Shown in pieces: positions 2,773 to 60,276 of a stretch of DNA of 64,000 nucleotides; the stretch's first letter is position 1, and the number at the start of each line of letters is the position of its first letter. Source of the DNA: a phage; the sequence record PZ445446.1. One strand, 5' to 3'. The notes beneath the pieces were generated by a model that saw only the letters and a list, made by a program, of their open reading frames with translations, was not told where the DNA came from and did not search any database. A program made the translations under genes and the position numbers.

Positions 2773-2784
2773 TCAGGAGATAAA

Positions 2785-3825
2785 ATGTCAAAACCTAGTT
2801 TTCCATTAGAGATTTGGGCAGAGGAGGATCAGGTTCTGCCTAACACCCACAGACAGAACAGGCTACGCCCGATTGATGATTTGTGGAGAAAAGGTTGGGA
2901 TCTTGGTCAAAAGCCCTCATGTGAAGAACTTAACTATATTTTCAATATGCTCGGAACTTGGGCAAAATACATTGCTGACGAGCAGATCCCCGCTCAAGAA
3001 GGCCGTTATCTGGTACGTGATAATAACTTGAGTGATCTTTTGAACATTCCTGTTGCCCGTAGAAACCTTGGGATTATTACTAAGGAAGAGGCAGACGCCA
3101 GGTATGTAAAAGTTACAGGTGATACAATGACAGGCCCATTGGGTTTGCAACGTATCAACTTTAAAGCTGCCGAGTCAGATAAGGCTTGGATAGAGACAAC
3201 TATTGGCCCAGATAAGACAACTCTCGACTTTGGGTTAAGTGATAATACCGGGTCGTTTGATGATGGTGGTACATCTACAGTGGATGCGTTCCGTTGGAGA
3301 TTCCAGCCAACTCAGCCGGATATTAATCCAGAGTTCACTTTGATGTACCTTAACGCGATCACGGCTAACCGTGCGCTGTTGAAAGTGGTAGGCAATGTTG
3401 AAGTTGTCGATAACATGAGGTGCAATAACCTTACTATCAGCAATACAGCGACATTCACCAACTGTAATGTGGCTAGTCAGTTGACGGCTGGGTCAGTGTA
3501 TGTTAATGGTGGTGCAAGTTGTGACAGTATGGTTGTAAGAAGCCAGCACTGTGTTGTCGGTAACAGAAATGTGGTTCGCTCTGTGAACGGAGTGACGGCT
3601 AACGGTAACGGTGATGTAACGATCACTATCCCGCAGACAGGTGTGCAAGACATCAGAATCGGTGCAAGACTTGTGGACGGAGTTTCTGAATCTCCAATCC
3701 GCAACGGCTACGTTGTCACAGGCTGGCATTTCGGTGACAAAAAAGAGATGCGTGGTTCAACCTACTGGGCAGGACCTTTACAAAAACTTGTAAATGGTCA
3801 ATGGATCACTGTTAATTATGCATAG
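2785..3825 (+). CDS. tail fiber protein (paralog A)
   Basis: 346 aa; N-terminus (FPLEIWAEEDQVL) and C-terminus (QKLVNGQWITVNYA) conserved with ORF 4837-5883; G/N/T/V-rich repeats typical of fibers. Confidence 0.6.
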   Translation: MSKPSFPLEIWAEEDQVLPNTHRQNRLRPIDDLWRKGWDLGQKPSCEELNYIFNMLGTWAKYIADEQIPAQEGRYLVRDNNLSDLLNIPVARRNLGIITKEEADARYVKVTGDTMTGPLGLQRINFKAAESDKAWIETTIGPDKTTLDFGLSDNTGSFDDGGTSTVDAFRWRFQPTQPDINPEFTLMYLNAITANRALLKVVGNVEVVDNMRCNNLTISNTATFTNCNVASQLTAGSVYVNGGASCDSMVVRSQHCVVGNRNVVRSVNGVTANGNGDVTITIPQTGVQDIRIGARLVDGVSESPIRNGYVVTGWHFGDKKEMRGSTYWAGPLQKLVNGQWITVNYA

Positions 3826-27298: not shown

Positions 27299-28504
27299 AT
27301 GATTTTCATTTACGAACACTTCAAAACTCGTAAAGAAGCACGTGACCGCCGTGCAGAACTTGAGAAGAAGGGTTTCACATGTGCCATTGAGAAAGGTGAC
27401 ACAACCTGGACACTGGCAGTGGGTGCCCCAGAGTTGTTCGATCCTGACCGTGACAGCGTCTGCTACACCCGTGAGGATTTTGAAACCCGTGAAGAGGCCC
27501 GTTTATTTCGATATGGGCTGGAAGATAACGGTAAGTACGCCATGATCTTAGACTTGGGCGAAGGTTCCGTTAAACGTTGGGGCGTGGTATACCCACTGTG
27601 TGTTGTTCACGGTGTGGGGTTCACTGGGGTGGCAATCAAGTCAGAAGGACCTTTAGTAGAAGTCAAAGATCCGGTGCTGGAGGTGGTGAGCAGTGTGTCT
27701 CAGCAACAGACTCGAAGCATCGAGCCTTTAGTAGTTATTTGTGGAGAACTCCTCCAGATCACCTGCAACGAAGGTATTTTTGAAATTCGCCGCAGTGAAA
27801 GTGAGGAAGTTTACCAGAAAGTCTTCGACCATATCTCTGTTCAGGAATATGACGAGGCAATTGGTGAAATCCTTGTCTGGTTGGAACGCAAGAATGAGTT
27901 CACCACACTTGCAGACAACCTGATCATGAAGGATGGTAAGCTCTACTACTACGGTGTAGAGATGCGATCCACCATTGCAAAGAAAATTGAGAAAGATTAT
28001 GCAGACGGAACACTGGATGACCGCTATGTGAAATTCCTAGTTCGCCTGCTACGCAATCCTTCTGCAAAATCTGTAAACATGCTCTACGATTTTATGCAGG
28101 CCAACGATATCCAGATTGCAGAAGATGGTCGAATCATTTGCTACAAAGGGGTTCAGTTTAACGGCAGCAAGTGGGTGGATTGGCACAGTGGTAAAGTTCC
28201 ACAATACCAGGGTGCTTTTGTATCCATGCCTCGTAACTTTGTAGAGGATGATCCGGAAGCTGCGTGCTCCTATGGCTTACACTGCGCCAGCAAAGAGTAT
28301 GCAAAGAGCTACGGCACTGTAATGACTGTTATGGTTGATCCTGCAGATGTGGTTAGTGTGCCATACCAACACAATAGCGCTAAGTGCCGTGCATGCCGCT
28401 ATGAGATTGTGGTAGCTCCGGAAGCACGCAAAGATGGAGACCCTATTGAATATGTAGTTGATCGTGACGGCAACACTATCGACATTCTTTACGAGGAGGC
28501 GTAA
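27299..28504 (+). CDS. hypothetical protein (possible rIIB-like partner)
   Basis: ATG with AAGGAGA RBS just after rIIA-like stop; rIIB assignment rests on adjacency only. Confidence 0.35.
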   Translation: MIFIYEHFKTRKEARDRRAELEKKGFTCAIEKGDTTWTLAVGAPELFDPDRDSVCYTREDFETREEARLFRYGLEDNGKYAMILDLGEGSVKRWGVVYPLCVVHGVGFTGVAIKSEGPLVEVKDPVLEVVSSVSQQQTRSIEPLVVICGELLQITCNEGIFEIRRSESEEVYQKVFDHISVQEYDEAIGEILVWLERKNEFTTLADNLIMKDGKLYYYGVEMRSTIAKKIEKDYADGTLDDRYVKFLVRLLRNPSAKSVNMLYDFMQANDIQIAEDGRIICYKGVQFNGSKWVDWHSGKVPQYQGAFVSMPRNFVEDDPEAACSYGLHCASKEYAKSYGTVMTVMVDPADVVSVPYQHNSAKCRACRYEIVVAPEARKDGDPIEYVVDRDGNTIDILYEEA

Positions 28505-29874
28505 TGGAAAAAGGGCAGTATGATGTAGGCACAGATGCTGCCCTCGTTGCAATCATGAGCGGTGAGAATGTCTTCGTTTCAGGACCCGCAGGTTGTGGGA
28601 AGACGTACCTCATCAACATGATCCAGTCAATGTATGGAGACTCTTGCATAACGGTTGCCCCGACAGGGGTTGCCGCTTTAAACGTTAATGGAGCAACAGC
28701 ACACCGAACCTTCGATCTTGCAGCAGGTGTGAGCATGGAGTCAGACTGGACTGCAATAAGGGCAAAAACAGCAAAGCCTTTGAAAAGCAAGGCATTTACC
28801 ATCCTAATTATCGATGAAATCTCTATGATCCGTGCTGATAAGTTTATAGAGATGGATAGGAAACTCCGCTTCCTTCGAAAAAATGACAAACCTTTCGGAG
28901 GCATACAGGTCATATTGTTTGGCGATTTTTACCAGGCACCTCCTGTTGTCTCTTCTATGGAGAAGGAAGCCTACTTCAACTTCTACCATACGGATCTGTG
29001 TTGCTATACCGAATCTTGGAAAGAGCTTGACCTCCACAACATAGCCCTAATAGATCAGTTCCGACAGGAGTCTATTCGATTTGCCACAATGCTCAACTGT
29101 GTTCGTGAAGGTCGCCGCATAAAAGAGGTTGTAGCAGAACTTAATGCTCGCTGTTACAAAGGTGGTGTACCAACAGATGCTCTCACAATTTGCGCCACCA
29201 ACAAACAAGCAGAGGAAGTGAACAGAAGGTTCTATGATGCCATCAACGCCCCAGAGAAGGTATACACTGGGGAAATGAAGGGTAAGTTTCCCTCCACCCT
29301 GCCAGTTGAGCAGGAGATGAAGTTGAAAATTGGCATGAAAGTTATGATAACCGCCAACGATGTTGACCCGACGCACAAAGTACCTTATTATGTTAACGGA
29401 ACACGTGCCACAATTGTTAAATTTAAGAACAAGGCGGTGGTGGTAGAGCTTGAAGATGGAACACAGGTTGACATAGAGCAGAGGTTGTGGGAGAATAACG
29501 AGTATAAGCCCTCTCAGAGATACAACATTGCAGAAAGGAAGATGGAGAAGTTTATAGAGAGGGTGGTGATTGGGTCATACAAGCAACTTCCTCTAAAATC
29601 CGGGTACGCCGTAACATCTCATAAAAGTCAAGGACTTACGCTAGATTGTTACAACCTAGACCTTGGAAAGAACGGAGCTTTCTCTCCTGGGATGACGTAT
29701 GTTGCTTTGAGTCGAGTTAAGACAATACAAGGAATAAACTTGTTGCGTCCACTAAGAGAAGTTGACATTATTGTTGACCCGCGAGTCGTAGAGTTTTACA
29801 ATACAACATTCCCTGACTTAGACAAAATTGTCAGGAAAGATTTTGAAACCAGAGCTGAAGAGGGGGACGTATGA
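28504..29874 (+). CDS. SF1B DNA helicase (Dda/RecD/Pif1-like)
   Basis: 456 aa; Walker A VSGPAGCGKTY, Walker B LIIDEISM, C-terminal AVTSHKSQGLTLD. Confidence 0.7.
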   Translation: MEKGQYDVGTDAALVAIMSGENVFVSGPAGCGKTYLINMIQSMYGDSCITVAPTGVAALNVNGATAHRTFDLAAGVSMESDWTAIRAKTAKPLKSKAFTILIIDEISMIRADKFIEMDRKLRFLRKNDKPFGGIQVILFGDFYQAPPVVSSMEKEAYFNFYHTDLCCYTESWKELDLHNIALIDQFRQESIRFATMLNCVREGRRIKEVVAELNARCYKGGVPTDALTICATNKQAEEVNRRFYDAINAPEKVYTGEMKGKFPSTLPVEQEMKLKIGMKVMITANDVDPTHKVPYYVNGTRATIVKFKNKAVVVELEDGTQVDIEQRLWENNEYKPSQRYNIAERKMEKFIERVVIGSYKQLPLKSGYAVTSHKSQGLTLDCYNLDLGKNGAFSPGMTYVALSRVKTIQGINLLRPLREVDIIVDPRVVEFYNTTFPDLDKIVRKDFETRAEEGDV

Positions 29875-32862: not shown

Positions 32863-33627
32863 TTGAAATTTATCTACAAAGAACACTACCACAAAGGTGT
32901 TGTGTGGAGCCTATTTGACGGATCTGGTGGTGCAGTCATTGACTGGGCAAAAGCTGGATATCTGTGCCTGTGCTTTAACGCAAAAGGTGCTGACCACGGC
33001 AGTTATGCAGAGGTGATCACCGATCATCCAAATATTCACTATGTAGATTATTGGATTGATCCATGGTTCCCTCAGGAAACTTTCTGCATGTACCCAGCTC
33101 CGGACTTTGTTCTTGCATTTCCTCCGTGCACCCACTTAGCGGTGTCAGGTGCTGCACACTTTAAGAAGAAGCTGGCTAAGGACCCGTTGATCCAGATTAA
33201 TGCTGTAAAGGATGCTCGGGTTGCAGAAGAGTTGGGAGAGATTTACGATTGCCCGTGGCATGTAGAGAATCCTGTGGGTGTTATGTCCACACTGTGGCGC
33301 AAACCTGATTACCGTTTTCACCCTTCTGACTATGGCGGGTATTTACCGGAGGATGATGTAAACCCCTGGTTTCCTGAATTTATAGCTCCACGTGATGCCT
33401 ATCCAAAAATAACTTGCGGCTGGATAGGTAATGGATTTATAATCCCGGCCACAAAACCTGTCCCGCAAATAGTTGACGCGGTTAGCGGGTATTCCATGCA
33501 ACACGCCAAGCTGGGTGGAAAGAGTGCAAGAACGAAGATGATCCGAAGCCTCACACCACGTGGCTGGGCAAAAGCCGTATTCTTAGCAAACGAGCCTGTA
33601 GTAAGGAGCAGAATTAATGGGAAGTAA
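32863..33627 (+). CDS. DNA cytosine-5 methyltransferase-like protein
   Basis: Motif I LFDGSGGAVIDWAKAG, PC motif FPPCTHLAVSG, ENV-like HVENPVG; TTG start after AGGAGA chosen because track GTG 32833 lies inside the upstream terminator. Confidence 0.45.
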   Translation: MKFIYKEHYHKGVVWSLFDGSGGAVIDWAKAGYLCLCFNAKGADHGSYAEVITDHPNIHYVDYWIDPWFPQETFCMYPAPDFVLAFPPCTHLAVSGAAHFKKKLAKDPLIQINAVKDARVAEELGEIYDCPWHVENPVGVMSTLWRKPDYRFHPSDYGGYLPEDDVNPWFPEFIAPRDAYPKITCGWIGNGFIIPATKPVPQIVDAVSGYSMQHAKLGGKSARTKMIRSLTPRGWAKAVFLANEPVVRSRINGK

Positions 33628-35695
33628 ATTTATGGCATCTGCATACAACCGTTTCGGTGAGCCAAACCCGAAAGCAACTAAGTATAAAAGTGGGGGAAGT
33701 GTGAAACGAGACTATCGTGATGAAAAAGAGGTTGAAACTGTAGAGACTGTTTTAGAAAATACTAAAATTGTCCCTGTTCCACAACAAAATATCGGTCTGA
33801 TGGCTGCACAATATTTTGGTGTGCGATCAGCATTGTCTCAAGAAGACGGTGTGACAGTTACTGCAACATATTTCCCATATTACGACCGCTACGGAAATCT
33901 GTCAGGTTTCAAAAAGCGTGACTGGACGATTCCTAAAGAGCAAAGGGGCCATTTCTCAGTTGTTGGCATAGTAAAGGCTAACTCTCAGATGTTTGGGCAA
34001 AAGCTGTGTGCATCTTCCAACAACCGTAAGCAAATTAACGTTTGTGAGGGGGAAGGTGATGTTATTGCAGCATGGCAGGCTGCATATCAGATACAAGTAA
34101 AAGGGATTCTCACCAACGCTAAAGCCCCGGCAAAGGTGAAGCAGTGGGCTAAAGAGGTCCAGGACGGGATCGATGCAGTTATCAACGGTGGTGATCTGGC
34201 AGGAAAACCCTGCCTACCTTTTGTTGGAATTAACTGTGGATGTGCAAACGCAGTAGATACTTTTGCAAACAATGAGAAGTTTATCCGTAGCTATGGAACA
34301 GTTGTGCTGGCAATGGATAACGATGCAGCTAACGAGGTAGAGAAGCAAAAACACGTCATTAAAGGTGTCGAGGCCACGCACAATATCGCAGCATTTTTGA
34401 TGGCTGATAACGTTTACCACGTAGAATACCCTGGTGAAGTAAACGACCCTGACGGTGTAAAAGATATCCGAGACATGCTGAAGGCTAAAAAGCTGGAAGA
34501 TATTGTCAACATGTTCCGGCATCCTGTTAAATATGTGCCTGATGCTGTGTCGGATTTAGAAGACTTCTCTATCGAGTCTTTGCGGAAAAAGACTTCCAAC
34601 GGGGTAGATATCAGCGCAGAGTTCCCAAAACTGCAAAAAATGCTAAAAGGCTTGCACAAAGGTACACTCGTAATGCTTACAGGCCCATCAGGTGGCGGTA
34701 AAACAACCGTAGCTAAAAAACTGGAACACTGTATTGCAAGATACCTAATGGACCCGACATGCCCGAAGGCTGATGACTATGAAGAGGATGATCGTCTATG
34801 TATGATCCATCTTGAGGAGGACCCAGAGGAAGCAATTAACTCCTTGTATGCAAACCAGTTAGGGTTTGATGTTAAAGAGTTTGTTGAAGATCCTAGCCAG
34901 TTTTTAACTGATCAAGAACACGCAGAGATTCATCAGTCATGGGCAAAAGCTGGAAAAATCAAAGTGTTCAAACATTTCGGGTCTATTCCGGTGGATGAGT
35001 TGATTACCAAGCTTAAGCAAATGGTTTGCCTGTACCATTGCCGTTATATTGTGCTGGATCACCTGTCCATGGTAATTTCAGGGCTTAATGTTAAGGATGA
35101 GCGAAAAGAACTGGACATGGCTATGACCCAACTGGCTGCGTTTTGTAAGCAGTTTAATGTGTTTATCTTGGTGATCGCTCACCTCAAACGTACAGAGATT
35201 GTGCCTCCTAAGGACAAGGATGGTAACCCGTTACCTTTCTGGTATCCTGTGCGAAAAGAGAATTTGCGAGGATCGGCTGGGCTTGAACAGTTGAGTTGGG
35301 TAGTTATAGGTGTCGAGGCCGAAGAAATGGTGGATCGTTCTCGTGGGCGTGTCCGTCTGGTAGGTCTTAAAAACCGTCCAGCAAAAACTTTAGGTATTGC
35401 TGACACTTTAGTTATGGACCCGCACACAGGTAAGTTCCATGATGCCAGTAACTGGTACTGGGACAAAGAAATGCAAATGTTTACAGACGGAGAAGGTGGG
35501 GAGGTTGTTTGGAGACCTCAGGCTATGTTTGAGGATCAGGAGCATGCAGTTGTAGAAACACCTATGGGCAAGGTTGTGGCTGATAAGGTTGTAACTCCTA
35601 CTGTTAAGCCTGTTGACACGCAGGAAGACCTCCAGTACGATGATCCGTCCTCTGACCATGTTCCTGGTTTTGAGGATGATGAAACACCTTTTTAA
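33617..35695 (+). CDS. DNA primase/helicase (Toprim + DnaB-family helicase)
   Basis: 692 aa; Toprim-like CEGEGD and LAMDNDAAN; Walker A LTGPSGGGKTT, Walker B IVLDHLSM. Confidence 0.7.
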   Translation: MGSKFMASAYNRFGEPNPKATKYKSGGSVKRDYRDEKEVETVETVLENTKIVPVPQQNIGLMAAQYFGVRSALSQEDGVTVTATYFPYYDRYGNLSGFKKRDWTIPKEQRGHFSVVGIVKANSQMFGQKLCASSNNRKQINVCEGEGDVIAAWQAAYQIQVKGILTNAKAPAKVKQWAKEVQDGIDAVINGGDLAGKPCLPFVGINCGCANAVDTFANNEKFIRSYGTVVLAMDNDAANEVEKQKHVIKGVEATHNIAAFLMADNVYHVEYPGEVNDPDGVKDIRDMLKAKKLEDIVNMFRHPVKYVPDAVSDLEDFSIESLRKKTSNGVDISAEFPKLQKMLKGLHKGTLVMLTGPSGGGKTTVAKKLEHCIARYLMDPTCPKADDYEEDDRLCMIHLEEDPEEAINSLYANQLGFDVKEFVEDPSQFLTDQEHAEIHQSWAKAGKIKVFKHFGSIPVDELITKLKQMVCLYHCRYIVLDHLSMVISGLNVKDERKELDMAMTQLAAFCKQFNVFILVIAHLKRTEIVPPKDKDGNPLPFWYPVRKENLRGSAGLEQLSWVVIGVEAEEMVDRSRGRVRLVGLKNRPAKTLGIADTLVMDPHTGKFHDASNWYWDKEMQMFTDGEGGEVVWRPQAMFEDQEHAVVETPMGKVVADKVVTPTVKPVDTQEDLQYDDPSSDHVPGFEDDETPF

Positions 35696-35753
35696 TGTTT
35701 AACAAAGAGTGGGAGGGGTAGTACAACCGCCTCCCCTTTAAGGAGAACTGTAT

Positions 35754-38531
35754 ATGAGCATGTGGTCGTTCGATTTTGAGTCATCCGGTTTGCTGGAAGA
35801 CCCAGATCTTTATTATCACTGCGGCCTGTTTAAAGAGCTGAATAAGAACCGTTTTATGCTGTTCCTTCCTCTGAATGACCGCACACACTACTCCGAGGAG
35901 GATATAGAGAAGGCCAAGAACTTTATTCTGGCAAAGAAAACTCTTTATAAGGATTTTGAAGTTCGCATAGCAGATTTTTCGGAGTTGGAAGGTTGGCTTA
36001 CAGGAAATTCTGACTGGTCACCAACAGCTTTGAACTGCCATAACTGCTACAGTTATGACTTTATGCTGATGGAGAGATTATCCGGTATTCATTTTGATAT
36101 GTTCCGTGATCCTAAATGCATGGGGACTATCAACGACCACCAGGTTAACCTGTTTGATACGTTGGCGATGAGCAGAATCTTGTGGCCTGATCGCCCTTTA
36201 CCAAAAGGTTGTCCGGACTCTGTATTCAACCCGGTTACTAAGAAAATGCAGCCTGTTGGTCCTCACGGCCTTATGGCATGGGGCTACGCCCTTGGTAACC
36301 AGAAAGTTCAAATTGATGACTGGCGCGATCTTCCGTTGTGGAAGTATGTGGATCGTGTATTCGAGGACGTTATCATCCAGGAGCTGCTCTGGAAAGAGCT
36401 GGTAGCGGAATCAAAAGGTGTATTCTACGGCAAATCTGACATGCAGAACTTTATGTACGATCCAGCCAAAGAGAAGCCGAAAGGGTTCAAGAAAATCACC
36501 TGGAAGAACGCATTACGCCGAGGCATGCTGCAGCACTTCCTGATGGAGCTGCAGGCCCGTCAGGGTGTGTATTTCGACATAGATGGGGCTATTGCTTTAC
36601 GTGACCGTTGCGATGCGTGGATGAAAGAGATCGCTGATCGTGTTGAACCTCAACTTCCTTTAAAAGAGTTGTCAATGTCTCAGCGACCCAAGTTCCCTGA
36701 AAAGCCGTTTAACCAAGATGGGACAATCTCCAATAATGGTTGGAAATGGTTAAAAGATAAGCTTGGCTATCCTGTAGACATGAGCGCTTTAGAATTCAAA
36801 GCCCCGCCTAAGCGAGCATTTACCTCCACAGGAGATGTCAGCAAGATGGGGATAAAATGGTGCGAAGAGATGGGCTGCAAAGACCCCGACAAGATGGCTG
36901 ATTTCTTGAGAGGTTATATTAAGGGCACCTCCACACCACAACCTTTACCTAAAGAGCTGATGGATCAGGCAATAAGTGATCTGCAGCAGAAGCGAATGCC
37001 TGACTGCAAGATACCTATGAAAATCAGCAATCAGGACGACATTAAGCGATACCTGATCAGTGCTGGTTGGCTTCCGACAATGTGGAGAACTAAGGATGTA
37101 ACTAAGGACAGCAAGAAGAAAGCTCTACCTGATGCAGATGTTGATGCACGAGTATATGCATACATGGACGAGCTTTTAGAGTCAGAGTATTGTGACCTAA
37201 TTATCAACTTCTGGAACAAAACTGATGCTAAGTTTCAGACAACAGTGCACAAGTTCCGAAGCTTTCCTAACTCCGAAAGGATTAAAAAGGAAGTGTTCGG
37301 GAAAATACGCAGAAAAGCCAGGGCACTTATTACTTCTCCGCAACTGAAAGATACGTTTGGACACCTATGTCCGAATCTTGAAAAATTGAACGGAGAGATG
37401 GCTAAAGATATCGTCTTGTGGTTATCATTGCGAAACCGCAGATCGGTCCTTGATCCAATCAAGGAGGATAAGGTTGATACTGGTCTTCTTAATCACCCAC
37501 GTTTGAAGATTGACCATAAGCTTCCTGCTAAAAGCTCTGGATTAACAAACACTTCCCGACAGAAACACAGTATTTGTGCAAACATGCCTAAACCATCTCC
37601 TAAAGTGGTTATGGGTAAAGAGATGCGTAGCTTGTGGGGTGTTCCTCCTGGATATTTTGAGATCGGTATTGACGGGTCCAACTTAGAGCAGCTTATCGGG
37701 GCTTGGGGTGCCTTTGAGTTCGACAACGGCTTGTACTATGATGTTGTAAGTAACGGAGACGCACACCAAAACAATGCTGAGGCATATACAAAAGTAGCAG
37801 GCAGAGAGGTGTCTCGTAACGACGGTAAACCTATCACGTATGGGGTTATGTACGGGGCACAAAAAGATAAAGTTGCAGATATGCTGGATATCTCCCCAGA
37901 GTTGGGGCAAAGGGTGATCGATGCACTTTGGGATGCCAACCCCGGTCTTAAGGGGCGCAAAGAGGATCTGGAGAAATTCTGGGAAGCAACAGGTAAGAAG
38001 TTTATCTACTCTTTTGATGGTCATGCTATCTGGACCCGATCTAAACACTCTTTACTTAATGCATACCAACAAAATGGTGGTGCATCGCTGTGTGACTTAG
38101 TTGGGATACTCATGCACCACCAAATGGTGAAGCGTGGGTGGTACGATGAAGGTGTCCGTCGTATTATTTATTACCATGATGAGTACCAACTTCAGGTCCC
38201 TGACACACCTAAGTATAAGACTGTGTACACCTTCGACACAATTGAAGAATTGGAAGCATTTAAGGCAGAGCAGGAGGCCAAACTTCATGTGTTCGACGGT
38301 CATAAGTACAAAAAGGCACGCAAGGATGAAAACGGAAACGAAGTGGTTGACAGAGACGGAAACACGGTGTACGATCCTATCCTGAACGATGACGGAAAGC
38401 TTGAACTTATCTGGAGCCCTGTGGGTGAAATGGTGGTGCATTGCTTCTGGCAAGCTTCTAAAATGATGGGCGTTCCATTCCAGATCACAGGTGAATACTT
38501 GTGCGGTCGTAACTGGGGTGATTGTCACTAA
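35754..38531 (+). CDS. DNA polymerase, family A, with 3'-5' exonuclease domain
   Basis: 925 aa; Exo I FDFESSG; Pol motif A DGSNLEQ, motif B RNDGKPITYGVMYGA, motif C YHDEYQL. Confidence 0.85.
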   Translation: MSMWSFDFESSGLLEDPDLYYHCGLFKELNKNRFMLFLPLNDRTHYSEEDIEKAKNFILAKKTLYKDFEVRIADFSELEGWLTGNSDWSPTALNCHNCYSYDFMLMERLSGIHFDMFRDPKCMGTINDHQVNLFDTLAMSRILWPDRPLPKGCPDSVFNPVTKKMQPVGPHGLMAWGYALGNQKVQIDDWRDLPLWKYVDRVFEDVIIQELLWKELVAESKGVFYGKSDMQNFMYDPAKEKPKGFKKITWKNALRRGMLQHFLMELQARQGVYFDIDGAIALRDRCDAWMKEIADRVEPQLPLKELSMSQRPKFPEKPFNQDGTISNNGWKWLKDKLGYPVDMSALEFKAPPKRAFTSTGDVSKMGIKWCEEMGCKDPDKMADFLRGYIKGTSTPQPLPKELMDQAISDLQQKRMPDCKIPMKISNQDDIKRYLISAGWLPTMWRTKDVTKDSKKKALPDADVDARVYAYMDELLESEYCDLIINFWNKTDAKFQTTVHKFRSFPNSERIKKEVFGKIRRKARALITSPQLKDTFGHLCPNLEKLNGEMAKDIVLWLSLRNRRSVLDPIKEDKVDTGLLNHPRLKIDHKLPAKSSGLTNTSRQKHSICANMPKPSPKVVMGKEMRSLWGVPPGYFEIGIDGSNLEQLIGAWGAFEFDNGLYYDVVSNGDAHQNNAEAYTKVAGREVSRNDGKPITYGVMYGAQKDKVADMLDISPELGQRVIDALWDANPGLKGRKEDLEKFWEATGKKFIYSFDGHAIWTRSKHSLLNAYQQNGGASLCDLVGILMHHQMVKRGWYDEGVRRIIYYHDEYQLQVPDTPKYKTVYTFDTIEELEAFKAEQEAKLHVFDGHKYKKARKDENGNEVVDRDGNTVYDPILNDDGKLELIWSPVGEMVVHCFWQASKMMGVPFQITGEYLCGRNWGDCH

Positions 38532-46160: not shown

Positions 46161-46489
46161 CAGAGATCATCGTTTCAACTGCAGGGTATGTATTCCTGAC
46201 AATCATTGCGTTGGCTATTCTGGTGGCGGTGTATGGATTTGTTATCCTGCCTATTCTTGAGACATTTAGCTTGTGTCGGTGTTGGAGAAAAGCTTACGGA
46301 CCACAACCGTGGAAAGACTGGTTTCATTTGGTGCGTATAGCGTTCTCTTATGCCTATGATCACTCCAGCAGTGCATGCGTAACCGGGTACCATGCCTACA
46401 ACTGGAACTGGGAAGGGCTTGGGAGATGGACTGTTACAAAAACTATACCCTTACGGTTGTATAAAGGAAAGAACACACTGGGAGCCTGA
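46157..46489 (+). CDS. membrane protein
   Basis: 110 aa; N-terminal hydrophobic helices (YVFLTIIALAILVAVYGFVILPIL). Confidence 0.45.
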   Translation: MTEIIVSTAGYVFLTIIALAILVAVYGFVILPILETFSLCRCWRKAYGPQPWKDWFHLVRIAFSYAYDHSSSACVTGYHAYNWNWEGLGRWTVTKTIPLRLYKGKNTLGA

Positions 46490-46799
46490 TATTTTAAGTT
46501 ATCAGATTGCCAGAGATCAGGAGGATTTCTAAAATGGATTTCCTCCTTTTGATATTTTACCTACCAGGATATTTTAAAATCCTTAGAAAATCAGAAAATG
46601 GATCGAAAACTAAAATGGATTTTTCAGAGCAGGCACGACGAGATGAACCACTCATCCTATCGTCTGCACCATATTCCAGACCACCATTACAGATTTCCCG
46701 CACATGCTCACACCCTTCTACTAGAACTTCCCCCACTTACCCTTGACCTTTTATAGTAATAATCCAACCACTACCTTGAAGTTGTGGCGCAGCTTTCCA

Positions 46800-46887
46800 A
46801 GTACTCGATCTGTTTTTCGTTTCAAAGATTGAATTTTCTGAAAATTTTTCTCGATAAATTTCTCAGTACTCGATCTGTTTTTCGTTT
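46800..46887. repeat. 23-bp perfect direct repeat pair (agtactcgatctgtttttcgttt)
   Basis: Copies at 46800-46822 and 46865-46887; partial third copy near 46947-46963. Confidence 0.65.
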
Positions 46888-47090
46888 TCTGAATCGGATT
46901 TTCTGGAAATCGTTCCGGCTCTCGACCTGAAATTTTTGGGGACGAAATCGATTTTTCGTTTTCAGAAATGGATTTTTAAAATTTCTATATGGGAATATTT
47001 TAGTGGATACTATTTTATAGGAAATTGTTACGGAGGATAATTAGCGTGCTAATTAAATTTATTAAATGCGAGGAGTTCTCATTTAGAATT

Positions 47091-47109
47091 TTGAATGATA
47101 ATCATTCTC
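47091..47109. promoter_or_regulatory. Fur-box-like operator (15 of 19 to GATAATGATAATCATTATC)
   Basis: ttgaatgataatcattctc; overlaps candidate -10 hexamers. Confidence 0.5.
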
Positions 47110-47122
47110 GTTTGCAGAATAA

Positions 47123-47165
47123 CGGGCAGGCCCGGTGATTGTCTCCCGGCCCCTACTGCCCCGGC
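47123..47165. repeat. GC-rich structured repeat, copy 1 (core CCGGTGATTGTCTCCC)
   Basis: Follows Fur box A; flanking GGGCAG/CTGCCC can pair around core. Confidence 0.5.
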
Positions 47166-47226
47166 TTGTTATTATAGTAACACACAGGACAAAGAAAGCA
47201 AGAAGTTTTTGCATAAATTTTTAGAC

Positions 47227-47245
47227 GATAATGATAATCGTTCTC
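47227..47245. promoter_or_regulatory. Fur-box-like operator (17 of 19 to consensus)
   Basis: gataatgataatcgttctc; preceded by TTGCAT about 17 nt upstream, so box overlaps a candidate -10. Confidence 0.55.
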
Positions 47246-47254
47246 ATTTCATGC

Positions 47255-47300
47255 AGCGCCCATCCCCGGTGGTTGTCTCCCCCGTCACCGGTGCCTGCCG
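47255..47300. repeat. GC-rich structured repeat, copy 2 (core CCGGTGGTTGTCTCCC)
   Basis: Follows Fur box B; CCGGTG/CACCGG stem. Confidence 0.5.
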
Positions 47301-47509
47301 TCCTTTCGATAGGTATATTTTGCCACCTGGCGGGGCCGCTGTCAACACTTTTCAAAAAAAAAAAAAATTCTAACCTGATGCGCTGACCGCTGCAACCTGG
47401 CGGGGCCAGCCTGGCAGGGCCTAACTGACCAGGTAGGAGAGAATGAAGGCTTGCAAACCTGGTGGGCCTATGCTATAGGATAGGTAACAATTGAAGAGGA
47501 GGTACAAAA

Positions 47510-47647
47510 ATGGAAGGTAATATGATCCCCCTGGTTGAAAAGGCTATGGCGGGAGCGTTGGAACATAAAGAAGAGTACGAAAAAATGATGGTTAACCTGG
47601 CAGGGGCGGCGGCTGGAGAATTCTACCCAAAAAATAATTTTAACTAA
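47510..47647 (+). CDS. hypothetical small protein (45 aa)
   Basis: ATG 7 nt after GAAGAGGAGG RBS; first gene after the 1-kb noncoding region; absent from track. Confidence 0.35.
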   Translation: MEGNMIPLVEKAMAGALEHKEEYEKMMVNLAGAAAGEFYPKNNFN

Positions 47648-47650
47648 TGG

Positions 47651-47679
47651 TTGACAGCTCGGACAGTTCTTGTTATTCT
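47651..47679 (+). promoter_or_regulatory. sigma70-type promoter TTGACA-N17-TATTCT
   Basis: Just after stop of 47510-47647, upstream of 47733. Confidence 0.5.
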
Positions 47680-47732
47680 TATCCTCACAAGGTGAACAAC
47701 ACCACACCAATTAACAGAGAGGATAAAAAATC

Positions 47733-47930
47733 ATGAACGCCTACGGAATTAAAGTACGTCGCAACACTCGCCAGGTGGTCACCAATCAAGTGATTTGCCG
47801 GGTGGATGTAACCATCAACAACGGGCAAGGCCTTTATAAATTTCGTCGCGGTCATAGCTATACCCTGCAACAGCTTAACCGTTGCGCCCTGACAAAAGGT
47901 CAGATCAACCACTGGTTTAATAAAAAATAA
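47733..47930 (+). CDS. hypothetical small basic protein
   Basis: 65 aa; promoter upstream. Confidence 0.45.
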   Translation: MNAYGIKVRRNTRQVVTNQVICRVDVTINNGQGLYKFRRGHSYTLQQLNRCALTKGQINHWFNKK

Positions 47931-56167: not shown

Positions 56168-56226
56168 TCCTTATAAACTACAAAACAGGGCTTGCAATGG
56201 TCCTGTTTTTTGTTATACTTGTTTCA

Positions 56227-56273
56227 CGGCAGGCACCTGGCGACGGGGGGAGACAATCACCGGGTGTGCCTGC
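56227..56273. repeat. GC-rich structured repeat, copy 3 (inverted orientation)
   Basis: Reverse complement gives cacccggtgattgtctcccccc…ggtgcctgccg, matching copy 2; GGCAGGCAC/GTGCCTGC stem. Confidence 0.5.
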
Positions 56274-57557: not shown

Positions 57558-57586
57558 CAAGGGGCTTAGGCCCCTTTCTTTTTGTC
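57558..57586 (+). terminator. intrinsic terminator ending rightward small-gene module
   Basis: AAGGGGC-ttag-GCCCCTT + TCTTTTTG after stop 57540. Confidence 0.7.
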
Positions 57587-58200
57587 TGCTCTTCTCCTAC
57601 CATAAACGGCCCTACCTGGCAAGTGGAATAATTGACTAGCCATCAATCCCACATACTGTACAAATATACATGGAAAATAACTATTGCATAATTTTTCATT
57701 GTGTGGTAGCAAGTCCATTTTTACCCGTTTTCTCTCCCAAAAGTGCACGTAATGCCGCTATTGCACAAATTTTAACCTGATGCACATCTCCAATATCTTG
57801 TCAACAACTAAAAATCTTTATAAGTCATACACTTACACAGCATCGAAAGCGTGTTCTACGCGAAAAATCGAGTATAACTATAGCCGCCAGATCTCAGAAT
57901 TCACGTACGCACGCCATTCTATAGCCTGCAAAGTATTTATTCCAACCACAGAATAACGGAATAGTCAATACCTGCATAAAATAATTATTCGTGTAAACTG
58001 CATAACATAAATCAGCTCAGGTGTCAACATTTTTCGTAAACAGTCCGAAATTATCACGATGAGCTATCATAAACAGAGAAATATTTAGTCGTCTAATGTT
58101 TACTGTACATTACTATACTGACTGGAATCATTAGATGACTAAGAGAAAGATAAGAAATAATTAATAATGTAATTATTTTACCTGTAACAATAAGGCAACT

Positions 58201-58494
58201 ATGCAAACGAATGGCATGGCGCGACGGAGTCGCGACATAATATAAAAGCAGTAACCATCACCCCCGTGATAGTTTGTCTGCAAACTATTAATCAGATCAT
58301 AGTTGCCTTGTATTTAGTTAATCATGACATAACAAGCAAGGCAACTATAGATCTTCTAATAGTTGCCCTGCTTTTATATTATGTCATAGGAACGCCCGAA
58401 GGGGTGACCTAGTCACCTGGTATAGCCAGCGAAAGATTATTAACTTGTCGATTGTTATCTTGTTAATTGTTTTCATGCAAACGAATGGCATGGC
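58201..58494. repeat. 20-bp direct repeat pair (atgcaaacgaatggcatggc)
   Basis: Copies at 58201-58220 and 58475-58494. Confidence 0.6.
58234..58387. repeat. 18-bp perfect inverted repeat pair (gacataatataaaagcag / ctgcttttatattatgtc)
   Basis: Arms at 58234-58251 and 58370-58387. Confidence 0.6.
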
Positions 58495-60060
58495 TTATCA
58501 TCTATGCGTGAACAGTGAGGCATGCAATAGTAACAATTGTTATTGTATCCAGTGTGTTGAGTATGCCCAGTGTGTCACTATTATGTCATATTATGTCACA
58601 GTATGTCAGACAAGTTTTCCTCCTCTTTGTCAAGTGCTGCATGAAAAATTTACAAGCTTGTATGGTAGCATTTTTGCGGCCCTGTTTACATTCAGTGTTG
58701 TATGTATAATCCTTGTTGTGTGGGCGTTTAGACGTCTGGACGGTCAGAAGTTTGCAGGTCAATATCTAATCTATTGGCTGCTAACTATATCCCCCACAAA
58801 TAATAAGAAATATAATTGTTATGTGCGTAAACAGTAACCCATGTTATCAATCCCTGTATGTATCGCCAGTGGTGCGCATAATGGGTATTATGTTAAATTG
58901 CCCGTAATGATAACAGTTCTCACAATGATAGGTATTCTCATTCATCCACACAAAATAGGTTGCAAATGTTGTGCCACTGTGTGAACGGCCTGGCCTATTA
59001 ATTTCTCTCACTGCCTCGATATTTGAGAATTGTTATAAGAATGAGAAGTATTCCCATTCCGTCCGCCTGGCAGCACTCCAGTAGCTACCGGCTCCTGACA
59101 GGGCAGCACTCCTGTAGGTCAGGTCAAAATCGTGGTAGAATTGGGCCTGTTCAGATATTTCTGACTGACTCTTCAGATCTGTGTGGGAAAAGCCAACCTC
59201 TCCGGAGGGGCAGGGGAGGTCAATTAAAAAATTTACGTGGTGTATGAAGCGCTCTTCAGGTAAGGCATGTATTATGGGATGAAACCCTCTTCAGGCAATG
59301 ATATTTGTGGGTGTGATATTTGCTGGAAAGCCAGATATGACGGGACTCCCGGCGGGGATGGGGTAGTACAGACAGGGAAAATATGGGGATGTAGTTGGGT
59401 AAATTGATCAGACAGGTAGAGTATGGAATATGTTACAAGTATGTTAAATAGGGAGGATGAATATCTGCAGGATTTGTGTGTAAAATCAAAGACTTAAGTG
59501 GTGTTGTGGTATTTTCTATAAATAATTCAAGTTTAATAGGTAATATTTGTCTCTATCCACTTTGTGTGGTAAACAGATTCAGATGAAATTGGTTTACAAG
59601 TGTATACATAATATACAAATTAAAGATACAAGAAACCCCCCTCCCCCTTCGGCTACCATTCACCTTTTCCTCTGACTGGTACTTAAACACTTATTCAGAC
59701 TCTTCAGGTTATCACCCATATATCATATGGCAGTGACTGGTGTCCTCCGGCCCCTCTTTCGTCACCCGTCCGCTTCGCCATGCTAATGCCATAGCCAATG
59801 GTTCGGTTGTTCACTCTGTTCACTCAGGTGTATCTCCATACCCCTTCAAACCGAAGAGAACAGAAAACCCGAATTACTCGGTAAAAGAAAAGAGAAGAAC
59901 TTAATTTTATCAGGATAGGCAAGAATGTCAAGGCATGACTGCTCACTAAACAAGCAAACAGTCATGTGTGGAAGGTAAGTGATTGTGGTGGTGGGAAATT
60001 TAGTTGAAAGATGTGTTATAGGTGCGCTTCCAGCACTTTGGCCGGGCAGCTAATTGTGTG

Positions 60061-60276
60061 TCAGTCCAGCGGTTCATCCTCTACTTCACTGAAATCAATG
60101 TTCATGGTCTCCTCCCAACCATCGATCTCAGCACAAGAGTGGAGTTCTTTAGGGTTTACTCCCAAAGCCTCAGCAACAGAGTCTATATTTAACACCTCTG
60201 GCAGGTATGATTCATCGAATTCAAGGTAAATCAGGCCACGAGTGTTGTCAGCTCCACCAAATATCTCTATCTTCAT
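60061..60276 (-). CDS. small acidic protein
   Basis: 71 aa, Asp/Glu-rich; last gene of leftward array. Confidence 0.45.
   Translation of the reverse strand: MKIEIFGGADNTRGLIYLEFDESYLPEVLNIDSVAEALGVNPKELHSCAEIDGWEETMNIDFSEVEDEPLD

What the first reader, a model, noticed from the sequence alone, without database searches (positions are those of the whole stretch)
46500..47040. Iteron-like AT-rich repeat region downstream of the replication module (candidate origin or regulatory hub)
Seen in sequence: about 540 bp with no convincing gene, multiple AAAAT(G/C)GATTT(T) units, a perfect 23-bp direct repeat (46800-46822, 46865-46887) with a partial third copy, and a DnaA-box-like GTGGATAC at 47003-47013. 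Iterons plus AT-rich DNA next to the replication genes is the classic origin architecture.
Basis: partly seen in the sequence, partly recalled or inferred. Interest (0 to 1): 0.6.

Follow-up and report, generated by a model that had tools for sequence, protein, structure and literature searches.

The report
Conserved iteron-like module in rV5 phages
A gene-free stretch of about 550 bp in an rV5-like coliphage carries direct repeats that are kept unit for unit across several related phage genera and lie next to binding sites for the host iron sensor Fur; it is a real, unannotated DNA control region and a reasonable but unproven candidate for the phage's replication origin.

Summary
The window is an rV5-like Vequintavirus, 99.7% identical to phage MaxBurger. 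The repeats are real: there are two exact 23-mers where chance gives 0, a degenerate third unit, and four AAATSGATTT sites where 0.46 are expected in the whole 64 kb. The small ORFs annotated here are not credible. The DnaA-like box is a 7/9 match that relatives do not keep.

The new result is that the whole architecture recurs in Seunavirus, Mydovirus, Certrevirus, an Erwinia phage (Hena1) and an Av-05-like contig. In order it has TGATATTT x3, an A-rich block, a variable spacer, three 65-76 bp units (core GGTWCTCGATC...TTTTC plus an AnTn tract), an AT-rich low-stability segment, and then Fur-box palindromes. Phapecoctavirus has different repeats at the same position. Two conserved leftward sigma-70 promoters, each followed by a GC hairpin, point at the module.

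There is no RNA-structure signal, no Rfam hit, no plasmid homology and no identifiable initiator protein. Cumulative GC skew has no inflection here. Its maximum lies in a separate 2.5 kb non-coding region, which corresponds to the terminal repeat of phage KPP-1.

Verdict: this is a conserved DNA-level protein-binding module. A replication origin is the best single reading (about 0.4). A transcription-control hub is the main rival. The Fur boxes in a virulent phage are the most surprising element.

The parts
46519..46550 (+). Hairpin (AGGAGGA...TCCTCCT) plus T-run: intrinsic terminator that closes the upstream + strand operon. A promoter-like TTGCCA-17-TAAAAT (46507-46535) overlaps it.
   Evidence: Sequence. 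The stem is kept through changes on both sides in relatives: GGAGAA/TTCTCC in L012 and L013, GGGAAAA/TTTTCCC in L014. Promoter scan.
46487..46574 (+). Three copies of (T/G)GATATTT, at 46487, 46550 and 46567.
   Evidence: The same triplet follows the upstream gene in 4MG, GAP31, Mydo, CB7, F4M1E and L021. TRF reports period 12 x 2.7 copies in 4MG.
46583..46624 (+). A-rich block (TTAGAAAATCAGAAAATGGATCGAAAACTAAAATGGATTTTT), nearly invariant in 10 Vequintavirus genomes; holds one of the AAATGGATTT sites.
   Evidence: 19/20 invariant columns in each of two consecutive 20-bp bins. A homologous GAAATCAAAATGAAAATCGAAATGG block is present in 4MG and CB7.
46626..46795 (+). Variable spacer. Its length is kept (169-171 nt) but its sequence is free. 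It is C-rich and G-poor on the + strand.
   Evidence: 3-10 of 20 columns invariant per bin. GC skew is -0.29 to -0.47 in all 10 Vequintavirus genomes but -0.22 to +0.19 in other genera.
46791..46855 (+). Repeat unit 1: box 1 GTACTCGATCTGTTTTTCG (contains GATC), box 2 GATTGAATTTTCT, and an AnTn tract GAAAATTTTTC.
46856..46929 (+). Repeat unit 2, the best conserved copy: box 1 GTACTCGATCTGTTTTTCG, box 2 AATCGGATTTTCT, then GAAATTTTTGGGG at the junction with unit 3.
46930..47002 (+). Repeat unit 3, degenerate. Box 1 has changed into the palindrome ACGAAATCGATTTTTCGT, which gives a + strand hairpin with a T-run at 46932-46969. Box 2 is AAATGGATTTTTA.
46967..47067 (.). AT-rich, least stable duplex segment of the locus (candidate DNA unwinding element). 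It includes the perfect palindrome TAATTAGC-GT-GCTAATTA (47038-47055) and the non-conserved DnaA-like 47002-47010.
   Evidence: Nearest-neighbour stability places it 4th of all 100-bp segments in the 136 kb genome, z = 4.0. GC is 0.20-0.33. Conservation.
47065..47113 (.). Fur-box palindromes A (degenerate, 47065-47086) and B (AATGATAATCATTCTCGTT from 47094; 2 mismatches to the 9-1-9 consensus).
   Evidence: A box with 0-2 mismatches sits at the same place in every genus examined; phage 4MG has a perfect one.
47124..47201 (-). Leftward promoter PA (-35 TTGCTT 47196-47201, 16-nt spacer, -10 TACTAT 47174-47179) followed by GC hairpin A (47124-47162, loop GAGACAATCACC) and a U-rich tail.
   Evidence: A promoter with correct spacing is kept in GAP31, PVP-SE1, 4MG, KpS11, F4M1E, Hena1, anhysbys and L021.
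47224..47249 (.). Fur box C (GATAATGATAATCGTTCTC; 17/19 to the classical consensus).
   Evidence: 2 mismatches, with 0.02 matches expected per window. Also.
47253..47345 (-). Leftward promoter PB (-35 TTGACA 47340-47345, 17-nt spacer, TGn + CAAAAT 47317-47322) followed by GC hairpin B (47253-47299).

Best explanation
Window 46487-47067 is a non-coding module that works at the DNA level. It is a scaffold on which proteins assemble, and the most likely role is the phage's internal replication origin. SHOWN: it is gene-free; it is conserved more strongly than the flanking genes; and its parts recur in the same order across Vequintavirinae genera. The order is TGATATTT x3, an A-rich block, a spacer, three 65-76 bp units each with a GGTWCTCGATC..TTTTC box, a second box and an AnTn tract, and then an AT-rich segment of very low duplex stability. 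INFERRED mechanism: a still unidentified phage or host protein binds the repeated boxes, with the AnTn tracts helping the DNA to bend or wrap. This strains the adjacent AT-rich segment (46967-47067) open, and the phage's T7-type primase-helicase and DNA polymerase load there. An intrinsic terminator at 46519-46550 shields the module from rightward read-through; in Vequintavirus a C-rich, G-poor spacer that resembles a Rho loading site may add to this. Two tandem, conserved leftward sigma-70 promoters (PA, PB) point at the AT-rich segment, as the tandem promoters of the T7 primary origin do. Each is followed by a hairpin and then by Fur boxes. How much transcription reaches the module could therefore be set by termination and by iron-loaded host Fur acting as a roadblock or operator.
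For: Repeats are far beyond chance. There is no coding signal and annotation is inconsistent between genomes. Within Vequintavirus, 16-18 of 20 columns are invariant across most bins of the unit region, against 4-8 in the upstream gene end. Across genera the order of elements is kept, with three units spaced 74-76 and 67-69 bp in Seunavirus, Mydovirus, the Av-05-like contig and Hena1, 5-6 shorter units in Certrevirus, and different repeats at the same locus in Phapecoctavirus. That pattern is what is seen when binding sites co-evolve with their binding protein. GATC is clustered in the units of other genera, 6 sites in about 200 bp. Segment 46967-47067 is the 4th least stable 100-bp segment of the genome. 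RNA folds of both strands are no better than shuffles (z = -1.73 to +0.71) and Rfam gives nothing, which favours a DNA-level role. PB and one site inside a gene (45810-45782) are the only - strand sites among the 26 scoring 10 or more of 12 in the 37.6-57.5 kb + strand block; PA was not picked up by that scan and was identified by eye. PA's counterpart is conserved in every genus examined. A T7-type primase/helicase and a DNA polymerase are encoded in the window. The module is not the packaging end: the 514-bp terminal repeat of KPP-1 lies 8.3 kb from its copy of the module.
Against: There is no experimental datum. Cumulative GC skew shows no inflection at the module, though the rV5 authors found that skew follows transcription direction. 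No initiator-like protein was found: flanking genes have no Pfam or NCBIfam hit, their PHROG families have no known function, and the one neighbouring protein checked against the PDB gave only coiled-coil matches. Unit spacing of 65-76 bp differs from classical 17-22 bp iterons. The DnaA-like box is not conserved. The module is 8.6 kb from the polymerase gene. Each leftward promoter is followed at once by a terminator-like hairpin, so little transcription may reach the module. At least three other places are as unstable or more so, among them the 2.5 kb non-coding region that also holds the skew maximum. No plasmid origin resembles it.
Confidence: 0.4

Rival explanations
1. A transcription-control and insulator hub with no replication role. 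The repeated boxes are operators for a phage regulator, and the Fur boxes are operators for host Fur. Together with the terminator they separate two sets of early genes and control the leftward small RNAs and/or a weak rightward Fur-repressed promoter (TTGAAT-18-CAGAAT, which overlaps Fur box B).
For: A terminator with compensatory changes lies at the left edge. Conserved promoters and Fur boxes lie at the right edge. Sigma-70-like promoters are dense on both sides of the module. Fur boxes classically overlap promoters, and the TTGAAT...GAAT arrangement is kept in most genera.
Against: The three units lie 150-400 bp from the nearest candidate promoter, which is far for operators. The AnTn tracts, the GATC clusters and the adjoining low-stability segment have no obvious role in this reading. 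The putative rightward promoter matches only 8/12 and falls below the scan threshold.
Confidence: 0.3
2. A non-coding RNA locus. One option is a + strand RNA of about 420 nt running from the promoter-like site at 46507-46535 to the hairpin and T-run at 46932-46969. The other is a leftward read-through RNA from PA/PB. In either case the repeats would act in the RNA, for example as protein-binding motifs.
For: A 10/12 promoter match at 46507 and a + strand hairpin with a T-run at 46932-46969 bracket the region. GGA-containing AAAUGGAUUU motifs recur on the + strand.
Against: Fold energies are no better than shuffles on either strand. Rfam has no hit at gathering threshold or down to E = 10. The 46507 promoter is not kept in L008, L010 and L011. 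The 46932 hairpin and the GGA motifs are absent from the homologous units of other genera. The features that are conserved (direct repeats, AnTn tracts, GATC) are DNA features.
Confidence: 0.1
3. A packaging (pac) or site-specific recombination site, in the manner of the GATC-hexamer pac site of P1.
For: Repeated GATC-containing boxes and intrinsic-bend tracts; rV5 was described as circularly permuted.
Against: In the Mydovirus KPP-1 the physical ends (514-bp direct terminal repeat, 116316-116829) lie in the large convergent non-coding region, 8.3 kb from the module at 125107-125744. The module is far from the terminase gene, which is at MaxBurger 683-3113 while the module is at about 81.2 kb.
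Confidence: 0.06
4. Small real proteins, with the repeats being codon repeats (ORF 46507-46746, or the annotated 48-aa and 34-aa ORFs).
For: GenBank records annotate several 'hypothetical proteins' here. A PHROG family exists for the - strand ORF.
Against: Substitutions show no periodicity of three. ORF 46507-46746 is truncated and others shift between relatives. One-base indels occur. There is no ribosome-binding site that I could see. Different genomes annotate different frames and strands, or none. No Pfam hit. The PHROG family only mirrors those same annotations.
Confidence: 0.02

Closest known systems
Iteron-type origins (lambda ori; P1 oriR; plasmids RK2, F, pPS10)
   Same: Several direct repeats of a protein-binding-type box, intrinsic-bend tracts, an adjoining AT-rich easily melted segment, and GATC sites inside repeats (as in P1 oriR). 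Repeat sequence diverges between lineages while the architecture stays the same.
   Different: Units are 65-76 bp apart and composite (two boxes plus an AnTn tract), not 17-22 bp sites in helical phase. No Rep/O-type initiator gene is recognisable nearby. There is no conserved DnaA box. There is no sequence similarity to any PLSDB plasmid apart from a phage genome that was filed as a plasmid.
Primary origin of phage T7 (tandem promoters phi1.1A/B followed by an AT-rich region; from my own knowledge of the literature)
   Same: Two tandem promoters about 145 bp apart (PA, PB) read toward an AT-rich low-stability segment. The phage has a T7-type primase-helicase and a PolA-type polymerase. A relative (KPP-1) has T7-like direct terminal repeats, and the module lies 8-12 kb from the equivalent region.
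   Different: The promoters are host sigma-70 type. Each is followed at once by a terminator-like hairpin and then by Fur boxes. T7 has no repeated protein-binding units at its origin.
Fur boxes of the enterobacterial Fur regulon, including tandem Fur-controlled sRNA loci such as ryhB and prrF1/prrF2
   Same: 19-bp 9-1-9 inverted repeats match AATGATAATnATTATCATT with 0-2 mismatches. They occur in clusters of 2-5, as in natural Fur sites (for the model). They stand next to small promoter-plus-hairpin units that are duplicated in tandem.
   Different: They lie in the genome of a virulent phage, downstream (+50 to +95) of the clear promoters rather than over them. No similarity to RyhB, PrrF or any Rfam family was found.
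oriC 13-mer / GATC cluster (consensus GATCTnTTnTTTT, recalled from memory; a lead, not a test)
   Same: Box 1 reads GATCTGTTTTTCG in the window and GATCgnnTTTTCa in other genera. It starts with GATC, is T-rich on one strand, and is repeated three times.
   Different: oriC 13-mers are contiguous and are themselves the unwinding element. Here the boxes are 65-76 bp apart and the least stable DNA lies beside them, not in them.

Membership tests
Iteron-type replication origin | Three or more direct repeats of one protein-binding sequence | tested here: met
   2 exact copies plus 1 degenerate copy in the window; 3 in Seunavirus, Mydovirus, the Av-05-like contig and Hena1; 5-6 in Certrevirus.
Iteron-type replication origin | Repeats of 17-22 bp spaced in helical register (about 22 bp) | tested here: not met
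   Start-to-start spacing is 65 and 74 bp in the window and 74-76 / 67-69 bp elsewhere; units are composite.
Iteron-type replication origin | Adjacent AT-rich DNA unwinding element | tested here: met
   46967-47067 is the 4th least stable 100-bp segment of 136 kb, z = 4.0.
Iteron-type replication origin | Cognate initiator protein encoded at or next to the repeats | tested here: inconclusive
   Neighbouring proteins have no Pfam or NCBIfam hit, and their PHROG families have no known function. The 274-aa protein upstream of the module in other genera gave only coiled-coil PDB matches and has no homologue in the window.
Iteron-type replication origin | Conserved host-factor site (DnaA box) | tested here: not met
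   AGTGGATAC at 47002-47010 matches 7/9 and varies among close relatives.
Iteron-type replication origin | Supports initiation in vivo (coverage peak, ori-test plasmid) | not testable with these tools
   No read data available. GC skew shows no inflection, but in rV5 skew follows transcription direction.
T7-type transcription-activated origin | Promoter(s) reading into an AT-rich region, with a T7-type replisome | tested here: inconclusive
   PA and PB read toward the AT-rich segment, and primase/helicase plus polymerase are present. However, a terminator-like hairpin follows each start site.
Fur operator | 19-bp 9-1-9 inverted repeat close to AATGATAATnATTATCATT, often clustered | tested here: met
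   Window 47094 and 47230 have 2 mismatches each. A 17/19 match to GATAATGATAATCATTATC occurs where 0.02 are expected. Every genus examined has a box with 0-2 mismatches.
Fur operator | Bound by Fur-Fe2+ and confers iron-dependent regulation | not testable with these tools
   Needs EMSA, ChIP, or infection of a fur mutant.
P1-type pac site | Marks the packaging start or genome end | tested here: not met
   The terminal repeat of KPP-1 is 8.3 kb from the module. The terminase gene is about 78 kb away in the MaxBurger record.
Known RNA families (Rfam 15) | Covariance-model match at gathering score | tested here: not met
   0 matches in the window. Only sub-threshold chance hits in 46300-47800.
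CRISPR array | Identical repeats separated by unique spacers that vary between genomes | tested here: not met
   There are only 2-3 units, and the inter-repeat DNA is itself conserved between genomes and carries further boxes. No cas gene appears in the MaxBurger annotation tables I retrieved.

The most novel reading that the evidence does not exclude
The module together with its Fur boxes is an iron-gated switch for phage DNA replication or for episomal persistence. Host Fur-Fe2+ would sit between the conserved leftward promoters and the repeat/unwinding module, and also in the terminal non-coding region. In this way the cell's iron status would decide whether the phage genome fires its origin or idles. 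That would couple replication to the supply of iron for the iron-dependent ribonucleotide reductases the phage encodes. It might also underlie the carrier state for which Vequintavirinae are the most frequent 'persistent virulent phages' in Escherichia assemblies.
Probability: 0.12. Interest if true: 0.85.

Novelty: new variant of a known kind. Interest (0 to 1): 0.6.

Why it matters
No origin of replication is known for rV5-like phages. The rV5 genome paper tried GC and AT skew and obtained only transcription-linked signals. These phages are widely isolated, are used for therapy and biocontrol, and are the largest group of virulent phages found persisting inside Escherichia isolates. A conserved cis-acting module, now delimited to a few hundred base pairs, gives a concrete target for marker-frequency sequencing, deletion, ori-test plasmids and protein pull-downs. 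The finding that near-consensus Fur boxes are kept at two non-coding loci across at least six genera of virulent phages infecting Enterobacterales suggests that these phages read host iron status directly, or titrate Fur. I found no report of this in the searchable literature. The locus is also mis-annotated with spurious small ORFs in many GenBank records.

Tried and rejected
1. Coding potential of every ORF in 46500-47373 was rejected. Substitutions show no periodicity of three, frames shift between relatives, and there is no Pfam hit. The two PHROG hits only reflect earlier automatic annotation of the same locus.
2. Rfam at gathering and at permissive thresholds gave nothing.
3. Structured RNA across the repeats: z-scores of -0.14, +0.71, -1.73 and -0.12.
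4. A CsrA-sponge idea (GGA motifs on the + strand) was dropped because the motifs are absent from homologous units in other genera.
5. The rut-site or R-loop reading of the C-rich spacer holds only within Vequintavirus. The skew is not kept in other genera.
6. RNAalifold on 15 homologues of the GC hairpin found no consensus stem. Single-sequence folds do give a common hairpin, but folding energies do not tell the strands apart. The strand was assigned from the promoters instead.
7. Packaging site: rejected using the KPP-1 terminal repeat.
8. Homology to plasmid origins: none. The single PLSDB hit is a phage genome.
9. Similarity of the Fur-box region to E. coli chromosomes: nothing significant.
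10. A search for an initiator protein among neighbours gave nothing: Pfam, PHROGs and NCBIfam for the neighbours, PDB for the 274-aa 4MG protein, and tblastn of that protein against the window.
11. A scan of 185,579 representative bacterial genomes for two spaced iteron boxes gave 84 hits. None is in an enterobacterial genome and most are in metagenome-assembled genomes of distant phyla. I take these as chance matches, so there is no sign of a satellite or island carrying the module.
12. IMG/VR added only a few relatives.
13. The conserved second element of other genera (CTACCGGCGATCCACCTTCC...) has no counterpart in the window, and the 4MG + strand RNA shows no fold signal.
Full report
IDENTITY AND SETTING. 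The window is an rV5-like myovirus (Vequintavirus). It is 99.7% identical over the test stretch to Escherichia phage MaxBurger, MZ501093; window coordinate x corresponds to about x + 34691 in that record. The finding lies inside a 37 kb block transcribed on the + strand. The helicase (27862-29232), primase/helicase (32975-35053) and DNA polymerase (35112-37889) genes are followed by more than 20 small genes of unknown function. The last credible upstream gene ends at 46489. The next credible gene is 47510-47647; it has a strong ribosome-binding site and an excess of third-position substitutions. So about 1 kb is gene-poor, and the finding covers its left half.

CHECK OF THE OBSERVATION. The 23-mer AGTACTCGATCTGTTTTTCGTTT occurs exactly at 46800 and 46865 and nowhere else in the window even with 3 mismatches allowed; none is expected by chance. 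The copies belong to units of 47-57 nt that are 77-79% alike, and a third unit at 46930 is 74% alike. Spacing is 65 and 74 bp. AAATSGATTT occurs four times in the region against 0.46 expected in the whole window. An alignment of ten Vequintavirus genomes was used to test the ORFs. None of the ORFs in 46507-47373 shows the codon-position pattern of a coding sequence. ORF 46507-46746 is truncated in several genomes, and single-base indels occur. GenBank annotators place different ORFs on different strands here, or none at all. None has a Pfam hit. The DnaA-like sequence is a 7/9 match, by my own count against the consensus as I recall it, and it sits in variable columns. I therefore do not count it.

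CONSERVATION WITHIN THE GENUS. The alignment resolves the region into blocks.
- 46519-46550: a hairpin plus T-run whose stem is kept through changes on both sides (GGAGGA/TCCTCC, GGAGAA/TTCTCC, GGGAAAA/TTTTCCC). It is an intrinsic terminator for the upstream genes.
- 46583-46624: a nearly invariant A-rich block.
- 46626-46795: a spacer of fixed length (169-171 nt) but free sequence, C-rich and G-poor on the + strand (GC skew -0.29 to -0.47 in all ten genomes).
- 46796-47000: the three repeat units, with 16-18 of 20 columns invariant in most bins. This is better conserved than the end of the upstream gene (4-8 of 20).
- 47020-47360: a nearly invariant stretch.

CONSERVATION ACROSS GENERA (the main new result). 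Distant BLAST at first showed only window 47049-47202 conserved outside the genus. Reading the loci directly showed that the whole architecture is kept. The phages examined were 4MG, GAP31 and PVP-SE1 (Seunavirus), KpS11, Mydo and KPP-1 (Mydovirus), CB7 and F4M1E (Certrevirus), Hena1, and an Av-05-like contig. After the upstream gene come, in order:
- three TGATATTT repeats;
- an A-rich GAAATCAAAATGAAAATCGAAA block;
- a spacer of about 190 nt;
- three units spaced 74-76 and 67-69 bp (5-6 shorter units in Certrevirus);
- an AT-rich stretch;
- palindromes that match the Fur box.
The unit consensus is gGT(t/a)CTCGATCga.TTTTC..ttTC.AaAtCGTATTTttTct......aaaAAATTTTT. That is two boxes plus an AnTn tract of the kind that bends DNA. 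In Hena1, box 1 has drifted (GGAGACTTGAGGGGTTTTTC) and box 2 reads AAAATGGATTTTC, like the window. In several of these genomes annotated ORFs overlie the repeats; one GAP31 ORF carries the annotator's own note 'poor ribosome-binding site'. Phapecoctavirus (a different subfamily) has unrelated AT-rich direct repeats (72 nt, 138 bp apart) at the same position upstream of its Fur boxes. Orthologous units resemble each other more than units within one genome do, so each unit is individually constrained.

DNA OR RNA? Folding 46540-46800 and 46790-47010 on both strands gives energies no better than shuffles (z = -1.73, -0.12, -0.14, +0.71). Rfam finds nothing. The only robust local structure is a + strand hairpin with a T-run at 46932-46969, and it is specific to Vequintavirus. 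The conserved features are direct repeats, AnTn tracts and GATC sites (6 in about 200 bp in Seunavirus, Mydovirus and Certrevirus). These are DNA features. I conclude that the module works as DNA that binds protein.

THE RIGHT-HAND NEIGHBOURS. Just beyond the finding lie Fur-box palindromes. AATGATAATCATTCTCGTT at 47094 and AATGATAATCGTTCTCATT at 47230 each have 2 mismatches to the 9-1-9 consensus. The second also matches the classical 19-mer at 17/19, where 0.02 matches are expected per window. Every genus examined has a box with 0-2 mismatches at this place, 4MG has a perfect one, and clusters of 2-5 boxes are common. A second cluster lies in the large non-coding region (window 58905-59060; in KPP-1, five boxes in and beside the terminal repeat).

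Between and beside the boxes are two copies of a GC-rich hairpin with the loop GAGACAAnCACC. A third copy lies at 56228-56273 on the other strand. Each copy is preceded, in one consistent orientation, by a good sigma-70 promoter: TTGCTT-16-TACTAT, TTGACA-17-CAAAAT with TGn, and TTGCAA-17-TATACT. In the 47 kb region that orientation is leftward, toward the AT-rich segment and the repeats. The leftward promoter is kept with correct spacing in all genera examined. PB is one of only two - strand sites among the 26 scoring 10 or more of 12 in the 37.6-57.5 kb scan; the other (45810-45782) lies inside a gene. PA itself was not picked up by that scan and was identified by eye. Single-sequence folds give the same hairpin architecture with different outer stems, followed by a U-rich tail, so much of this transcription may terminate early. 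RNAalifold on a crude alignment did not recover a consensus.

TESTS BEARING ON AN ORIGIN. I rebuilt the whole MaxBurger-like genome from the window and its flanks. Cumulative GC skew rises to a maximum at 94-96 kb (window about 59-61 kb) and shows no inflection at the module, only a flatter slope. The rV5 authors had already found that skew changes track changes in transcription direction, so this is weak negative evidence. Nearest-neighbour duplex stability ranks 46967-47067, directly beside unit 3, as the 4th least stable 100-bp segment of 136 kb (z = 4.0). The large non-coding region (window 57560-60070) and a site near 132.7 kb rank as high or higher. No initiator-like protein is recognisable. 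The 274-aa protein that precedes the module in other genera has no homologue in the window. No plasmid origin resembles the module. The module is not the packaging end: the published 514-bp direct terminal repeat of KPP-1 (PMC9862379) maps to the convergent non-coding region, 8.3 kb from KPP-1's copy of the module.

INTERPRETATION. That this is a conserved, non-coding, DNA-level protein-binding module is well supported (about 0.85). For its function I commit to an internal replication origin (about 0.4). The arrangement is repeated binding units with bend tracts, then an easily melted segment, then tandem promoters aimed at it, in a phage with a T7-type replisome and, in a relative, T7-like terminal repeats. 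It combines features of iteron origins and of the T7 primary origin. A terminator on the upstream side would shield such a complex from read-through. The main rival (about 0.3) is a purely transcriptional control and insulator hub. An RNA locus, a packaging site and small proteins are less likely, for the reasons given under each rival.

The Fur boxes may act in several ways. They may be roadblocks or operators for the leftward transcripts. They may be operators of a weak rightward promoter (TTGAAT-18-CAGAAT). Or they may simply titrate Fur. None of this is tested. Membership in the classical iteron-origin family is not claimed: the spacing criterion and the DnaA-box criterion were tested and not met, and the initiator criterion is unresolved.

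NOVELTY. I found no description of these repeats, of an origin, or of Fur boxes in rV5-like phages in the searchable literature. The rV5 paper only marks a 'non-coding' box on its map, which is probably the 2.5 kb region. I rate the module as a new variant of a known kind (a repeat-organised cis-acting region, candidate origin). Its unusual feature is host Fur sites conserved across genera of virulent phages.

Noticed in passing
window 47065-47113 and 47224-47249; also 58905-59060: Near-consensus Fur boxes in a virulent phage: 2 mismatches to the 9-1-9 consensus at 47094 and 47230, 17/19 to the classical 19-mer, with 0.02 expected per window. They are conserved at the same place in every related genus examined (perfect in 4MG). 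A second cluster lies in the large non-coding region. KPP-1 has five boxes in and next to its terminal repeat. No report was found in the searchable literature.
   Followed up: partly
window 47124-47162 (-), 47253-47299 (-), 56228-56273 (+): Three copies of a GC-rich hairpin with conserved loop GAGACAAnCACC. Each lies a few bases downstream of its own sigma-70 promoter (PA 47174-47201, PB 47317-47345, PC 56192-56219). This is a likely small RNA or 5' leader element. Homologues with a conserved promoter are present in all genera examined. There is no Rfam match.
   Followed up: partly
window 57560-60070: A 2.5 kb gene-free region where the + and - strand gene blocks converge. It holds the global maximum of cumulative GC skew, several of the least stable segments of the genome, a 20-nt exact direct repeat (58201 and 58475), an 18-nt perfect inverted repeat (58234/58368), TGATATTT x2 (59299, 59314) and Fur-like boxes. 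Its counterpart in KPP-1 contains the 514-bp direct terminal repeat. It is a rival site for an origin and/or the genome ends.
   Followed up: partly
PLSDB record CP057073.1 (matches window 46480-47060 at 99.5%): A 137,565-bp 'non-mobilizable plasmid' from an E. coli culture (cattle faeces) appears to be an rV5-like phage genome. A preprint (10.1101/2024.12.31.630880) reports Vequintavirinae as the largest cluster of 'persistent virulent phages' in Escherichia assemblies.
   Followed up: partly
L033 1045-1232, L030 1045-1240, L015 7300-7530, L004 2030-2225: The spacer of non-Vequintavirus genera, Phapecoctavirus included, carries 2-3 copies of TTATCTCAAA. The window's spacer lacks this motif and is C-rich and G-poor instead.
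   Followed up: no
L005 2640-2760, L006 2620-2740, L033 1640-1765, L029 1610-1730: In Seunavirus, Mydovirus, Certrevirus and Phapecoctavirus the Fur-box/hairpin unit is followed by a second conserved element (CTACCGGCGATCCACCTTCC ... GTTAGCCCCGCCTTTTCGCCGTGGGGTGGCG plus a T-run), and often by a small - strand gene of family DUF7170. The window has neither; it has a second Fur-box/hairpin unit instead.
   Followed up: partly
window 47324-47466 and 47586: The motif AACCTGGCGGGGCC recurs 4-5 times (47324, 47394, 47408, 47456, and 47586 inside the 45-aa gene) in a stretch that is variable and rich in indels among relatives.
   Followed up: no
GenBank records MG0656xx listed: 16-17 records named 'Campylobacter phage' (host given as C. 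jejuni) match this rV5-like locus at about 92-98% identity and look like rV5-like coliphage genomes, most without annotation. The naming or host assignment looks doubtful.
   Followed up: no
window 47510-47647: The 45-aa gene after the module is shorter than in nine of the ten relatives. An in-frame stretch of about 39 nt (..CCCTGGAAAATGTAGCTATTAATGACGCTGAGGCTATCG..) present in them is missing here.
   Followed up: no
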